Assembly: GCA_938040325.1 (NCBI GenBank)
Contig: CALHXW010000039.1
Coordinates: 13,513-77,512 of the forward strand
DNA from: an uncultured bacterium
GTDB taxonomy: Bacteria; Myxococcota_A; UBA9042; PHBI01
Length of the DNA stretch: 64,000 bases
Reading direction: 5' to 3'
The translations under genes were made by a program, and so were the position numbers. The notes under the pieces were generated by a model. The model was not told the origin of the DNA and searched no databases. It saw nothing but the letters and a program-made list of their open reading frames with translations. Positions 47,521 through 52,422 of this stretch are shown piece by piece; the stretch's first letter is position 1, and the number at the start of each line of letters is the position of its first letter.

Positions 47521-50500
47521 GTGACGTCTGCCTCAGCACTCGGCGCGCGCTTTACCGTGGTCCGTCCTCTAGGGAGCGGGGGCCAGGGGCAAGTGTTTGC
47601 GGTGACCGACCATGCGCGCGATGACGAGATGGTCGCGCTCAAGGAAACCACCATGGCCGGCCGCCAGATCCTGGCGCGGGAGTTCGGGCTGCTCGCTCGG
47701 CTGCGGCATCCGCACCTGGCGCGTGTGCATGACTGGTTCGAAGCGAGCCCTGTGTCGCCCGACCGGGCAGCATACACCCAAGAGCTCGTCGGCGGCACCG
47801 ACCTGTTCCGCGCGCTAAAGTCGCAGCCCATCGAGGTCCACGAAGAAGCCTTCGATCAGATCCTGCGCGCACTTGCCTATCTGCATGCGCTTGACGTCCT
47901 CCATCTCGACCTCAAGCCCGACAATGTCTTTGTCGAGCTGCTCGACGGCCGGCCGCTGGTTCGCGTGCTCGACTTCGGCATTGCACACCACGGCGATGGC
48001 GCCATCACGCACGTCGGCGGCAGCTACAGCTACGTCGCGCCAGAGGTCGTTGTCGGTGGCGAGATCACGGCTGCGGCCGACCTCTACGCGCTCGGCGTGA
48101 TGATGTGTGAGGTGGCGACCGGGCGACCGCCCGATCCGATCGCGCTCAAAGAAGAGCTGGCAGACTACGACGCCCGCGTCGCGTGGCTGGCGGCAGGTGG
48201 CTGCCCACCGTCGTGGCAGGACACGGTGGCCGCGCTGCTCGACCAGGACAGCACGAAGCGGCCGCGCTCAGCCCATGAGGCGGCACGGCTCTGGGCGCGT
48301 CATCGGCGACGGGAGGTGGCGCTCTTTCTGCCCGACGACGTCGCGGCAATGGTTCGCGCCGGCGCGCCGGCGGAGCGCCAGTCGGAGCTCGATGCTTGCG
48401 AAGCGGTGTGGCGCGATGGCGGCGGGCTGGTGCTTGTCGGGCCAGTCGGCGCAGGCAAGGCCAGCGTGTTGCGCGCTGCAGAGCGACAGGCGCAGGTCGC
48501 CGGGCGCTGGACGGAGTCGTGGCCGGCGTCGGAGTCGAGCGCCACCCCGCGTTCCTTCGCCGCAGCGATCACACGGTTGACCGGCGCCTCGTCGATTCTC
48601 ACAACGCTCTCAGAGACCGCAGACGGGCTGACCGAGCGCGGCGCCGGCGCACCGAGTGCCGATGCGAGCGCGCGCTTTGCGGCGTGGATGCGGGAGCGCG
48701 CCGTTCGCGTGGTGGAGCTGCTGACCGACGTCGAACCGCGCGACCCGACGCCAGTCCTTGTGCTGCCTGACCTCGGTCGCTGTCCACGGATCGTGCGGGC
48801 GATCGTGGATGCCGCGCTCGACCATCTGAACGCCGGCGGCGCGCTGCCCTTTGCGCTGCTGGTTGGCGCGGAAGAACACGCATCCGCGCTGTCGGTTCAG
48901 GCCCCGCCGCTTGGCCGCTCGGACGTTCGACGTTTCCTCGGCCGGTGTTTCGGGATCGGTGCCGCCGACGCCAGACTCAGCGCGAGCCTCGCGGCAGCGT
49001 CGGGTGGCCTGCCCGTGCACCTCGCCCAGCTCACAGCGCTGGCCGTCGCGCAGGGGCACCTTGCGTTTGACGGCGCGCGCTGGCGTACGCGCGAGCAGGG
49101 TGCGGAGCTCACGCTGCCTGCTGACGTGGCGGATGTGCTCAGCGCGCGGGTTGCGCTCTTGGATGTGCCGGCAAGGGAGGCCCTCGCGGCTCTGAGCTGG
49201 CTCCGATTTCCGAGTCACGGCGATGCGATCGGCGCCACGCTCGCGTCTCAGGAGCCTCCGACGCAAGCGCTGCTGTCTCTCGAAGCTGCCGGACTGATCT
49301 GGCATGAGACCGATCGCTACCAGCTGAGTCATCCAGGACTGAACGCAGCGTTCAACGGCTGGGAGCCCGCTGGCGGGGCCGATGCAGGCCATGCACGCGT
49401 CCGCGCCCTCGCAGGCCTCGATGACGTCGCCCGGGCCTGGCACGCGGGCGGTGCGGCGGGTGCCGAGGCGCTCTACACGATGGCGAGTGCGGCTTGGGAG
49501 CAGGGAGATGTCGAGGTCGCTGCTGCCAGGCTTGATCTGGCGCTCGAGCTTGCTCCCAAGCGCCTGGACGCGCTGATCATGCGCGCCGAGGTCGCCGATC
49601 TCCTGGGCCCACGCGAGCGGCAGATTCGGTCGCTGAGGGAGGCGTTAAGCCAGCTCGACCCGACGGATGAGCGGCACCTTGAGCTTGAGTCACGTCTCTT
49701 TTGGGCGCTGACCCGCGCTGGCCAAGACGACGAGGCAGAGCCGATCGGACGGGCGTTGATCGAACACGCGGAAAAGCGGGGACGGACCCGTCTCTTGGCC
49801 GAGGCACTCGGGCACCTGTCGATCGTGCTGTCGCATCGTGGCGCCTACGACGACGCCGAGGCCTGCCTGAAGCGCGCCATCACGACAGCTGCACCGCTGG
49901 GTGTGCTCGGGCTCTCGGCGCGGCTCCACAACAACCTCGGCAACGTGTTTGCCTACCGTGAAGATCCTACCAGCGCACTGGTCGAGTACTCTGAGGCCAA
50001 CCGTCTCAAGACGGAGGAAGGCGACCCCGTTGGGCAGCGGATCGCCGTCGGCAACATGGGGTTGATGTGCATGCGGCTTGGGCGACATGCCGAGGCGATG
50101 GCTCACTTTGCTGCATCCTATGCCGCAGCACGCGAGACCCAGCACCGGCGAGGCATTGCCTGGAGCCTCTGTGCCCTGGCCAACATTGGCCTGGAAGCTG
50201 GCGCATGGGCGTACTCGCTGAGGCGGTCGGAGGCCGCGCTGGCCGCGGCGAGTGCTCTCGGTGACGCCATGATTGCCGCCGACGCCACCATCACAAAGTC
50301 GGAGGCAGAGCTTGGGCTCGGAGATGTCTCTGCGGCCCGAGCGAGCCTGGAGGGGGCGGTCTCGGCAGGCGCAACCTCGTACTCGTCGTCGCGCTCGAGC
50401 GTGGCGCGCGCCGCAACGTCACTCGCCGTGGGTGACATGGATGCCGCGCTGAAGTGGGCAGACGAAGCAACGAACGACACGAGCGTCGACGCGTTCGGCC

Positions 50501-52422: not shown

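What the first reader, a model, noticed from the sequence alone, without database searches (positions are those of the whole stretch)
47521..52422. 1633-aa fusion of an active Ser/Thr kinase, STAND NTPase, TPR and GAF with a complete sigma-54 activator (AAA+ GAFTGA plus HTH)
Eukaryotic-like kinases normally regulate EBPs in trans, for example through FHA domains. Here a complete kinase domain (all catalytic motifs intact) and a complete EBP output module sit in one polypeptide, separated by an NTPase/TPR/GAF scaffold. This is a compact sensor-to-transcription device and may be the activator for sigma-54 promoters such as the one at 9920.
Basis: partly seen in the sequence, partly recalled or inferred. 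Interest (0 to 1): 0.6.

Follow-up and report, generated by a model that had tools for sequence, protein, structure and literature searches.

The report
Kinase fused to sigma-54 activator
This is a real 1633-residue cytoplasmic protein from an uncultured myxobacterium that joins a eukaryote-like Ser/Thr kinase, a worn-down STAND/TPR scaffold and a shortened GAF domain to a complete sigma-54 transcription activator; the layout recurs in many myxobacterial genomes but has never been studied experimentally.

Summary
The ORF 47521-52422 (+) is real and unbroken. An independent assembly matches it without gaps, and 16 full-length orthologues align with it end to end.

Domain searches confirm a Hanks-type kinase (residues 12-249), TPRs (about 640-1060) and a complete sigma-54 activator. 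The activator has Walker A/B, GAFTGA, arginine finger, sensor II, lid and HTH_8 in residues 1315-1628.

Three points need correcting:
- **Kinase:** it is a conserved non-RD type (HLD, not HRD).
- **STAND module:** it has the STAND fold (best structural match 6MFV), but its Walker motifs are degenerate here (GKAS; VLVL-PD). It is the least conserved domain.
- **GAF:** it is below Pfam threshold. Profile comparison shows it is a GAF with about 14 residues deleted.

The fusion is not unique. At least 60 of the 120 best database clusters carry both kinase and GAFTGA motifs, including one from cultured Polyangium spumosum. This orthologue group itself is small: about 13 clusters and 10 loci, all in Myxococcota MAGs.

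Nothing links the protein to the sigma-54 promoter at 9920, although that promoter looks genuine.

My best model is a fusion of a PknK-like kinase-STAND-TPR sensor with a GAF-type activator, in which the sensor gates AAA+ ring assembly. It is an uncharacterised variant of known kinds, of moderate interest.

The parts
47521..52422 (+). Whole gene: 1633-aa kinase / STAND / TPR / GAF-like / sigma-54 activator fusion (GTG start, TGA stop)
47554..48267 (+). Hanks-type Ser/Thr kinase domain, residues 12-249. Motifs: G-loop GSGGQGQV (18-25), Lys41 (VALKE), Glu54, catalytic loop HLDLKPDN (128-135, non-RD), DFG (151-153), APE (173-175), Asp187, Arg247.
   Evidence: Pfam Pkinase E 1.8e-35. PDB kinase alignments. 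These residues are invariant or nearly so in 17 orthologues. Motif position.
48358..49380 (+). STAND nucleotide-binding oligomerisation module (NBD, helical domain, winged helix), residues about 280-620. The P-loop is degenerate: G307-PVGAG-K313-A314-S315. The Walker B is degenerate: V412-LVL-P416-D417.
   Evidence: AAA_16 below cut-off. Model pLDDT 87.5, best PDB match 6MFV STAND+TPR at E 1.6e-12. Motifs. Lowest conservation of all domains, 32%.
49438..50700 (+). TPR / MalT-like superhelical sensor, residues about 640-1060, carrying the family-specific invariant motifs EGDPVGxRIAxGN and GHRRGxAWSL
   Evidence: Pfam TPR_2, TPR_12 and TPR_MalT. PDB profile and fold hits to LGN/Pins/OGT TPRs. 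Invariant columns.
50701..50820 (+). Conserved linker motif W-P-E-x-P-x-x-D-G-V-D ... D-G-P-(S/C)-R, residues about 1061-1100; function unknown
   Evidence: Invariant W1068, D1075 and P1086, with P1069 nearly invariant. Modelled with high confidence.
50923..51270 (+). Truncated GAF-like domain, residues about 1135-1250, with conserved GAERGFLV, DADGE and LVLQNRFxAxAF
   Evidence: No Pfam hit for this protein. Model pLDDT 92.7. Foldseek gives MglB/Roadblock at E 5e-4 and GAF domains at E 1e-2. hhalign against Pfam-positive GAFs of paralogues gives probability 97.4%, E 1e-11, with a deletion of about 14 residues.
51271..51435 (+). Long linker ('signalling') helix between the GAF-like domain and the AAA+ domain, residues about 1251-1305, with the invariant TRSTEEIL..LRRELE motif
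   Evidence: Single 47-residue helix in the model. Invariant T1288, L1294, R1295, L1298 and E1299. The same element is described in PexR (PMC12754779).
51463..52212 (+). Sigma-54 interaction AAA+ domain plus lid, residues 1315-1564. Motifs: Walker A GESGTGKE (1342-1349), GAFTGA (1389-1394), Walker B D1413-E1414, R-finger region FREDLFYRL (1467-1475), sensor II GNVRQLEN (1528-1535).
   Evidence: Pfam Sigma54_activat E 4e-69 and AAA_lid_14. E 2e-73 to the NtrC1 structure. All motifs invariant. Positions.
52288..52404 (+). Fis-type HTH_8 DNA-binding domain, residues 1590-1628
   Evidence: Pfam HTH_8 E 2e-6, above cut-off. 75% mean identity among orthologues, the most conserved domain.
47431..47470 (+). 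Conserved sigma-70-type promoter of the gene: -35 TTTACA (47442-47447), 17-nt spacer, -10 TAGCGT (47465-47470). The -35 is overlapped by a dyad-like TGTT-N9-TACA (47431-47447).
   Evidence: The same arrangement (TGTATAG..TTTACA, N17, TAGCTT) is seen upstream of orthologues in L002, L004, L005, L007 and L008. This is consensus matching only, not shown to be functional.
47478..47519 (+). 13-codon upstream ORF. It starts 7 nt after the -10 (the position of the leaderless start codon in orthologues) and ends in a TGA one base before the main GTG.
   Evidence: Present without gaps in the independent assembly L001.

Best explanation
The gene encodes a soluble cytoplasmic sigma-54 activator (bEBP). 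Its N-terminal regulatory region is a complete PknK-like kinase-STAND-TPR sensor instead of a receiver domain.

**Shown by sequence**
- The C-terminal module (truncated GAF, signalling helix, AAA+ with GAFTGA, HTH_8) has every feature of a group III bEBP such as NifA, NorR or PexR.
- It should therefore bind an upstream enhancer, assemble into an AAA+ ring and use ATP to open sigma-54 promoter complexes.
- The kinase keeps all catalytic residues.

**Inferred**
- The TPR superhelix binds a signal, most likely a protein or peptide.
- The STAND module has lost canonical Walker motifs in this lineage. It probably works as a conformational and oligomerisation scaffold, not as an NTP-driven switch.
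- The shortened GAF, which has lost its pocket-covering segment, and the long helix relay that state to the AAA+ domain. This releases or permits ring assembly.
- The non-RD kinase needs no activation-loop phosphorylation. It is brought together with other copies of the protein by the same oligomerisation, and it phosphorylates the protein itself and/or partner proteins. One sensing event is thereby coupled to both phosphorylation and transcription.

The target promoters are unknown and are not adjacent to the gene.
For: **Domain calls and motifs**
- Pfam and NCBIfam support the kinase, TPR and activator modules.
- PDB alignments match NtrC1, ZraR and NifA activators and PknA/MAPK kinases.

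**Conservation**
- Kinase and AAA+/HTH motifs are invariant across 17 orthologues of 42-52% identity.
- Mean pairwise identity by domain is HTH 75%, AAA+ 69%, kinase 54%, TPR 46% and NBD 32%.

**Structure**
- The STAND+TPR fold is supported by the 6MFV match.
- The GAF-derived domain and its 47-residue helix are supported. This is the arrangement shown experimentally to auto-inhibit PexR and NorR (PMC12754779; PMC2941729).

**Modularity**
- Kinase-AAA_16-TPR proteins without the activator exist, including two in this window.
- AAA_16-TPR-Sigma54 proteins without the kinase exist in Planctomycetota.

**Other**
- There is no transmembrane segment.
- STAND proteins activate by inducer-dependent multimerisation (PMC4381067 abstract). 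bEBPs need ring assembly (established knowledge).
Against: - No experiment exists for any member of the family.
- The kinase substrate, the TPR ligand and the DNA site are all unknown.
- Three orthologues keep a canonical GK[ST]T P-loop, and two of them also a DD Walker B. NTP switching may therefore persist in part of the family, and Lys313 is retained here.
- Foldseek ranks the GAF-like domain nearer to MglB/Roadblock than to GAF, with low TM-scores for both.
- No sigma-54 promoter was found near the gene in any of the loci, so sigma-54-dependent output rests on motif conservation alone.
Confidence: 0.5

Rival explanations
1. One sensor with two independent outputs. The STAND/TPR sensor controls the kinase, which phosphorylates other proteins as M. 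tuberculosis PknK does, and separately controls the activator. Phosphorylation plays no part in controlling the activator module in cis.
For: PknK, the closest characterised kinase-STAND protein, acts on separate substrates such as VirS, FabD and response regulators (PMC9045387). The window encodes five other Hanks kinase genes, one of them carrying two kinase domains, so trans-phosphorylation networks are plausible. A conserved convergent neighbour is a two-kinase STAND-TPR protein.
Against: The kinase has stayed fused to the activator across many diverged lineages (60 of 120 clusters). That argues for a functional coupling, although a shared sensor would also explain it. No FHA-domain or phosphatase gene was seen among the larger ORFs scanned around the gene or among the precomputed annotations of the related loci.
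Confidence: 0.3
2. The kinase domain no longer acts as a catalyst. It serves as a nucleotide-binding or docking domain, and the protein is simply a large signal-integrating activator.
For: The HRD arginine is lost in 56 of 60 fusion proteins. The adjacent STAND domain shows that catalytic decay does occur in this protein.
Against: Asp130, Lys132, Asn135, the DFG Asp151 and APE are invariant, and Lys41 and Glu54 nearly so, in all 17 orthologues. The kinase is more conserved than the TPR or the NBD. Non-RD kinases are generally active (established knowledge).
Confidence: 0.08
3. An antiviral STAND (Avs-like) immune sensor, in which the TPR detects a phage protein and the kinase and activator are effectors.
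For: The layout of N-terminal effector, STAND, then TPR sensor resembles Avs proteins (recalled knowledge). PADLOC kinase models match the kinase domain.
Against: The PADLOC hits are generic kinase and RtcR-type AAA+ domain matches; no Avs/STAND model matched. The Walker motifs are degenerate. The gene sits in conserved housekeeping synteny (cobW, nadA, LysM peptidase, esterase, deoC) across diverged genomes, not in a variable defence island.
Confidence: 0.03
4. Artefact: a frameshift or chimeric assembly has joined a kinase-STAND gene to a separate activator gene.
For: None found. The public gene call differs only at the start codon.
Against: An independent Logan assembly is 99.8% identical with no gaps over 13.9 kb. 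Sixteen orthologues from different samples are colinear over the full length. GC content is uniform.
Confidence: 0.01

Closest known systems
Group III bacterial enhancer-binding proteins with an N-terminal GAF domain (NifA, NorR, FhlA, M. xanthus PexR)
   Same: GAF-type domain, then a long signalling helix, then an AAA+ domain with GAFTGA, then a Fis-type HTH. All AAA+ motifs are intact. The GAF is expected to control the AAA+ domain in cis, as shown for PexR and NorR (PMC12754779, PMC2941729).
   Different: The GAF here lacks about 14 residues and falls below Pfam threshold, so it probably has no ligand or metal pocket. About 1130 extra N-terminal residues (kinase, STAND, TPR) precede it. The known members have no kinase.
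M. tuberculosis PknK and the MalT/LAL-type STAND regulators
   Same: Soluble Hanks kinase followed by an AAA_16-type STAND module and a MalT-like TPR sensor. JGI even labels several relatives 'PknK'. MalT provides the model of inducer-driven STAND multimerisation that controls a DNA-binding output (PMC4381067).
   Different: The output is a complete sigma-54 AAA+ activator, not a LuxR-type HTH (MalT, LAL) or no DNA-binding domain. The Walker A and B motifs are degenerate here. The kinase is non-RD.
FHA-domain enhancer-binding proteins of Myxococcus xanthus (Jelsbak, Givskov and Kaiser 2005, cited in PMC12288465)
   Same: They connect Ser/Thr phosphorylation with sigma-54 transcription in myxobacteria.
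   Different: In those proteins the kinase is a separate protein and the activator carries a phosphothreonine-binding FHA domain. Here the kinase is part of the activator polypeptide and no FHA domain is present.
Database paralogues with the same architecture, e.g. Polyangium spumosum WP_170319261.1 ('sigma 54-interacting transcriptional regulator')
   Same: Pkinase, AAA_16, (TPR), GAF, Sigma54_activat and HTH_8 in the same order. Most are non-RD kinases, and about half have a GxxGxGR P-loop.
   Different: They share only 30-45% identity over parts of the protein. They carry a full-length Pfam GAF. They belong to other orthologue groups. None has been characterised.

Membership tests
Bacterial enhancer-binding protein (sigma-54 activator, PF00158) | AAA+ domain with Walker A GxxGxGK[ET] and Walker B hhhhDE | tested here: met
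   GESGTGKE at residues 1342-1349 and LFLDE with D1413-E1414. Pfam E 4e-69. Invariant in 17 orthologues.
Bacterial enhancer-binding protein (sigma-54 activator, PF00158) | GAFTGA sigma-54 contact loop | tested here: met
   ESEFFGHERGAFTGA, with GAFTGA at residues 1389-1394 (window 51685). Invariant.
Bacterial enhancer-binding protein (sigma-54 activator, PF00158) | Arginine fingers, sensor II and lid domain | tested here: met
   FREDLFYRL (1467-1475), GNVRQLEN (1528-1535), AAA_lid_14 E 1.4e-20.
Bacterial enhancer-binding protein (sigma-54 activator, PF00158) | C-terminal Fis-type HTH that binds an enhancer | tested here: met
   HTH_8 at residues 1590-1628, 27.8 bits against a cut-off of 22. 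75% identity among orthologues. The DNA site itself was not identified.
Bacterial enhancer-binding protein (sigma-54 activator, PF00158) | ATP-dependent activation of a sigma-54 promoter | not testable with these tools
   No adjacent -24/-12 promoter was found. rpoN was not looked for in the window; no ORF scanned matched a sigma-54 family.
NtrC-type response regulator | N-terminal receiver (REC) domain with a phospho-acceptor Asp | tested here: not met
   No Response_reg hit. The NCBIfam ntrC model matches only residues 1302-1627, at 338 bits against a cut-off of 559.
Hanks-type (eukaryote-like) Ser/Thr protein kinase | Glycine loop, VAIK lysine, alpha-C glutamate | tested here: met
   GSGGQGQV (18-25), K41 in VALKE, E54.
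Hanks-type (eukaryote-like) Ser/Thr protein kinase | Catalytic loop HRDxKxxN, DFG and APE | tested here: met
   HLDLKPDN (D130, K132 and N135 invariant), DFG 151-153, APE 173-175. The Arg of HRD is Leu, so the kinase is non-RD; this affects regulation, not catalysis.
Hanks-type (eukaryote-like) Ser/Thr protein kinase | Phosphotransfer activity | not testable with these tools
   Needs an autophosphorylation assay.
STAND NTPase (signal transduction ATPase with numerous domains) | NBD, helical domain and winged-helix module followed by repeat sensor (the fold) | tested here: met
   AlphaFold model pLDDT 87.5. The best PDB match is 6MFV_A, a STAND protein with TPR, at E 1.6e-12 over 687 columns. 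The global TM-score is low, 0.27-0.36, as expected for a flexible multidomain chain.
STAND NTPase (signal transduction ATPase with numerous domains) | Walker A GxxxxGK[ST] | tested here: not met
   The window has G307-PVGAG-K313-A314-S315. Fourteen of the 19 closest relatives have GxxGxGR. Only P0010, P0012 and P0017 are canonical.
STAND NTPase (signal transduction ATPase with numerous domains) | Walker B hhhhD[DE] | tested here: not met
   VLVL-P416-D417. The acidic pair is not conserved among orthologues.
STAND NTPase (signal transduction ATPase with numerous domains) | Pfam AAA_16 / NB-ARC model above threshold | tested here: inconclusive
   AAA_16 scores 23.6 bits against a cut-off of 32.6. 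Some orthologues carry the precomputed hit.
GAF domain | Match to Pfam GAF, GAF_2 or GAF_3 | tested here: not met
   No hit for the window protein. Only a few of the 17 orthologue segments hit, all sub-threshold (GAF in 2, best E 0.006; GAF_2 in 1, E 0.019).
GAF domain | Homology to bona fide GAF domains by profile comparison | tested here: met
   hhalign probability 97.4-97.7%, E 1e-11 to 2e-12, against the GAF domains of 12 paralogues. Two representative segments (P0022, P0030) score E 1e-15 to 1e-18 in Pfam. About 14 residues are deleted.
GAF domain | GAF fold with a ligand pocket | tested here: inconclusive
PknK / MalT-LAL type kinase-STAND regulators | Kinase plus AAA_16 plus MalT-like TPR | tested here: met
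PknK / MalT-LAL type kinase-STAND regulators | LuxR-type HTH output, or no DNA-binding output | tested here: not met
   The C-terminus is Sigma54_activat plus HTH_8.
Antiviral STAND (Avs) and other defence systems in PADLOC | Match of the NTPase/sensor to a defence-family model; location in a defence island | tested here: not met
   Only generic kinase and RtcR-type AAA+ hits. The gene sits in conserved housekeeping synteny.

The most novel reading that the evidence does not exclude
The protein is a self-contained Ser/Thr 'one-component' phospho-switch for sigma-54 transcription. Signal binding to the TPR drives assembly on the pseudo-STAND platform. The non-RD kinase then phosphorylates neighbouring subunits, for example in the invariant TRSTEE signalling helix or the GAF-like domain. 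That phosphorylation licenses AAA+ ring formation. This would be a direct, in-cis Hanks-kinase-to-sigma-54 pathway that replaces the His-Asp phosphorelay of NtrC.
Probability: 0.25. Interest if true: 0.65.

Novelty: new variant of a known kind. Interest (0 to 1): 0.42.

Why it matters
Myxobacteria encode very large numbers of both Hanks kinases and sigma-54 activators. How the two networks connect is known only for a few cases that act in trans, such as FHA-domain activators and the Pkn8/Pkn14-MrpC cascade.

A protein that holds both activities in one chain is a ready-made system for testing several questions:
- Can Ser/Thr phosphorylation gate AAA+ ring assembly?
- Can a STAND platform work without a functional P-loop?
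- What does a GAF domain do once it has lost its pocket?

Practically, the finding also shows that automatic annotation under-describes these genes. They are labelled 'sigma 54-interacting transcriptional regulator', and the start codon of this one is mis-called so that the kinase glycine loop is removed.

Tried and rejected
**Adjacent sigma-54 promoter.** I scanned the LysM|gene and gene|esterase intergenic regions, and about 8 kb either side, in the window and 16 related loci for GG-N10-GC sites with at most 2-4 mismatches. Nothing conserved turned up.

**Link to the 9920 promoter.** Its TCGACAGTC enhancer-like repeats have no exact copy elsewhere in the window. Window-wide counts of sigma-54 consensus matches are not above chance: 25 found against 28.6 expected.

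**PADLOC defence models.** Only generic domain hits.

**Literature.** Nine full-text searches and five papers gave no description of a kinase-activator fusion. The myxobacterial kinome paper (Perez et al. 2008, PMC2572974) and the Sorangium genome paper, which may mention such architectures, could not be read. Prior description therefore cannot be excluded.

**PDB profile search with the STAND-TPR alignment.** It returned only TPR and weak P-loop matches. The fold search was needed to place the STAND module.

**Functional coupling with neighbours.** The LysM/M74 peptidase and the PF00756 esterase are conserved neighbours, but so are cobW and nadA. The pattern may be plain inherited synteny. 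Only the esterase persists in the one locus with a different upstream context (L007).
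Full report
**1. The observation**

The ORF listing gives a single ORF at 47521..52422 on the + strand, 1633 aa, with a GTG start. Its translation has no internal stop.

Pfam places six features:
- Pkinase, residues 12-249, E 1.8e-35.
- Several TPR families, residues 648-1026, including TPR_MalT.
- Sigma54_activat, residues 1315-1480, E 4e-69.
- AAA_lid_14, residues 1486-1564.
- HTH_8, residues 1590-1628.
- A weak AAA_16, residues 296-420, at 23.6 bits against a cut-off of 32.6.

Pfam gives no GAF hit. NCBIfam matches all NtrC/NifA/NorR-type models only over residues about 1280-1630 and below their equivalog cut-offs. 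The C-terminus is therefore a generic sigma-54 activator module, not an orthologue of a named regulator.

GC content is even across the gene. A separately assembled contig (Logan, ERR9287624; L001) is 99.8% identical over 13,883 bases with no gaps. Sixteen full-length orthologues at 42-52% identity align colinearly from the kinase to the HTH. The frameshift or assembly-join refutation test therefore fails, and the fusion is real.

The public gene call for the identical protein (P0001, 1597 aa) starts at Met37 and removes the glycine loop. Orthologue N-termini ('M..RFxxxxxLGxGGQGRV') show that the GTG at 47521 is the correct start.

**2. Domain by domain**

*Kinase.* Alignment to PknA, MAPK and other solved kinases and the orthologue alignment show these features:
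- G-loop GSGGQGQV.
- Lys41 (VALKE) and Glu54.
- Catalytic loop H128-L-D130-L-K132-P-D-N135.
- D151-F-G and A173-P-E.
- Asp187 and Arg247.

The catalytic-loop, DFG, APE and Asp187 residues are invariant; Lys41 and Glu54 are nearly invariant. The HRD arginine is Leu here and Leu or Cys in every orthologue. Among 60 kinase-activator fusions in the hit list, only 4 have HRD. This is a conserved non-RD kinase. It is predicted to be catalytically competent and not dependent on activation-loop phosphorylation (established knowledge on RD versus non-RD kinases).

*STAND module.* A model of residues 255-1115 (pLDDT 87.5) shows:
- a P-loop alpha/beta domain;
- a helical domain;
- a winged helix;
- about 20 paired helices.

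Its best PDB match is 6MFV, a STAND protein with TPRs (E 1.6e-12). TPR proteins such as LGN/Pins and OGT follow.

The catalytic motifs are eroded:
- Walker A is G307-PVGAG-K313-A314-S315, with Ala where Ser/Thr should be.
- Fourteen of the 19 closest relatives have Arg in place of the lysine.
- The Walker B strand reads VLVL-P416-D417, not hhhhD[DE].
- The NBD is the least conserved domain at 32% mean pairwise identity, against 69% for the AAA+ domain and 75% for the HTH.

Three orthologues (P0010, P0012, P0017) keep a canonical GK[ST]T P-loop, and two of them (P0012, P0017) also a DD Walker B, so the decay is lineage-specific.

*GAF.* Pfam misses it in this protein, and only a few orthologue segments give sub-threshold hits. 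A model of residues 1118-1300 (pLDDT 92.7) is a small alpha-beta-beta-alpha-beta-beta-beta sandwich followed by a 47-residue helix. Foldseek ranks MglB/Roadblock first (E 5e-4) and GAF domains of Nlh1, NifA and CodY next (E about 1e-2), all with low TM-scores.

Profile-profile comparison settles homology. Against the equivalent region of 12 paralogues, the orthologue profile scores probability 97.7% (E 2e-12). With the helix removed it scores 97.4% (E 1e-11). Two representative paralogue segments score E 1e-15 to 1e-18 for GAF/GAF_2. GAERGFLV aligns with GAERGFLL, and LVLQNRFxAxAF aligns with LYLDNRFxxxxF. About 14 residues are deleted between them. The domain is a shortened GAF, which explains its Roadblock-like appearance.

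*Activator module.* Every defining element is present and invariant:
- Walker A GESGTGKE.
- ESEFFGHERGAFTGA.
- Walker B LFLDE.
- FREDLFYRL.
- GNVRQLEN.
- The lid domain and the HTH_8.

*Location.* No 19-residue window reaches a hydropathy typical of a membrane helix. The protein is cytoplasmic.

**3. Distribution**

The first homology search returned 518 proteins at E <= 1e-10. Of the best 120 clusters, 60 carry both a kinase catalytic loop and GAFTGA. They include entries named from Polyangium spumosum (WP_170319261.1, 'sigma 54-interacting transcriptional regulator'), Sandaracinus and Byssovorax.

Both halves also occur separately:
- AAA_16-TPR-Sigma54 proteins without the kinase are found in Planctomycetota.
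- Kinase-AAA_16-TPR proteins without the activator are common. Two are in this window, at 27951-32057 and 53565-58217.

The architecture is therefore a fusion of two widespread modules.

The specific orthologue group is small:
- A profile of its STAND-TPR region, searched against 1.84 billion representative proteins, finds 13 clusters above 480 bits. The scores then drop sharply to TPR-only matches.
- A scan of 185,579 species-representative genomes finds 10 loci, all in uncultured Myxococcota or 'Deltaproteobacteria' MAGs.

**4. Context**

Five of six loci compared have a divergent LysM + Peptidase_M74 gene upstream. Four have a PF00756 esterase immediately downstream and a fifth has one a gene away. 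Both neighbours in the window have signal peptides. cobW, nadA and deoC are also syntenic, so this may be inherited gene order and not a regulon. Only the esterase survives in the locus with a different upstream context (L007).

No -24/-12 promoter was found beside the gene in the window or any related locus.

The gene has a conserved sigma-70-like promoter: T(T/G)TACA, 17 nt, TAGCTT. A TGTA-N9-TACA dyad overlaps the -35. In orthologues the start codon follows the -10 by 5-9 nt, which would give a leaderless mRNA. In the window, the ATG at that position (47478) opens a 13-codon uORF that ends one base before the main GTG.

**5. The 9920 promoter**

The site TGGTACACCGGTTGCA (9920-9935) lies 35 nt before the ATG of a 962-aa ORF with no Pfam match. 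About 260-300 bp upstream of it are five TCGACAGTC copies with 10-bp phasing. It looks like a genuine sigma-54 promoter with an enhancer.

Nothing ties it to this protein. The repeat has no exact copy elsewhere in the window, and the distance is 37 kb. The only supporting fact is that this is the sole GAFTGA protein in the window.

**6. Mechanism**

*Shown by sequence.* The protein has a complete sigma-54 activator output and a catalytically intact kinase.

*Inferred.* Four lines of evidence feed the model:
- GAF-type activators are auto-inhibited through the GAF and signalling helix, as shown for PexR and NorR.
- STAND proteins switch by inducer-driven multimerisation, as shown for MalT.
- The STAND module here is a decayed platform.
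- The GAF is a relay without a pocket.

I therefore propose that the TPR binds the signal, the pseudo-STAND/TPR assembly controls AAA+ ring formation, and the kinase is co-activated by proximity. I give this 0.5 confidence.

The main rival (0.3) is a shared sensor with two independent outputs, as in PknK, which phosphorylates separate transcription factors. A non-catalytic kinase (0.08), a defence STAND (0.03) and an artefact (0.01) are unlikely.

**7. Novelty**

No paper in the searchable library describes a kinase-activator fusion. The two papers most likely to mention it could not be read.

The architecture is already in public databases under generic names. No member has been characterised, to my knowledge. 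I rate it a new variant of known kinds (GAF-type bEBP plus PknK-like STAND kinase) and of moderate interest.

Noticed in passing
window 9613-9663 and 9920-9935: A well-placed sigma-54 -24/-12 element (TGGTACACCGGTTGCA) lies 35 nt upstream of the ATG at 9970, which opens a 962-aa ORF with no Pfam match. Five TCGACAGTC copies (four direct with 10-13 bp spacing, one inverted) lie about 260-300 bp upstream of it. This looks like an enhancer array. The motif has no other exact copy in the window.
   Followed up: partly
window 47431-47521; L002, L004, L005, L007, L008 upstream of the orthologous genes: A conserved sigma-70-like promoter (T(T/G)TACA, N17, TAGCTT) sits upstream of the gene, with a TGTA-N9-TACA dyad over the -35. 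In orthologues the start codon lies 5-9 nt after the -10, implying a leaderless mRNA. In the window about 42 extra bases, rich in GTCC/ATCC/GCCC repeats, create a 13-codon uORF (47478-47519) whose TGA ends one base before the main GTG.
   Followed up: partly
window 47521-47631 (protein residues 1-37): The public gene call for the identical protein (P0001, 1597 aa) starts at Met37. This deletes the kinase glycine-rich loop. Orthologue alignment supports the upstream GTG.
   Followed up: yes
proteins P0001-P0080: Across 60 kinase-activator fusions, the STAND P-loop lysine is replaced by arginine (GxxGxGR) in about 32. The kinase HRD arginine is absent in 56 (HGD 24, HLD 21, HCD 5, HKD 5, HAD 1). 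Both look like family traits and not random decay.
   Followed up: partly
window 50701-50820 (residues 1061-1100): An invariant linker motif, W-P-E-x-P-x-x-D-G-V-D ... D-G-P-(S/C)-R, lies between the TPR region and the GAF-like domain. It is modelled with high confidence although it has little secondary structure. It may dock intramolecularly onto the TPR.
   Followed up: no
window 2604-4487 (-), 13565-15589 (-), 27951-32057 (+), 41450-43525 (+), 53565-58217 (-): Five further Hanks-type kinase genes lie in the 64-kb window. One has a cNMP-binding domain, one a PEGA domain, and two are kinase-AAA_16-TPR proteins. The convergent neighbour at 53565-58217 carries two kinase domains and is also adjacent to the orthologue in L002/L003.
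   Followed up: partly
window 45953-47164 (-) and 52500-53513 (+): The conserved neighbours are a secreted LysM + Peptidase_M74 (MepA-like murein endopeptidase) and a secreted PF00756 esterase. Both have signal peptides. The esterase stays immediately downstream even in the one locus (L007) with a different upstream context.
   Followed up: partly
window 52422-52460: An 11-nt inverted repeat (AACGGCAGCGC / GCGATGCCGTT) lies directly after the stop codon, with no T-run. It is unclear whether it separates the gene from the esterase transcriptionally.
   Followed up: no
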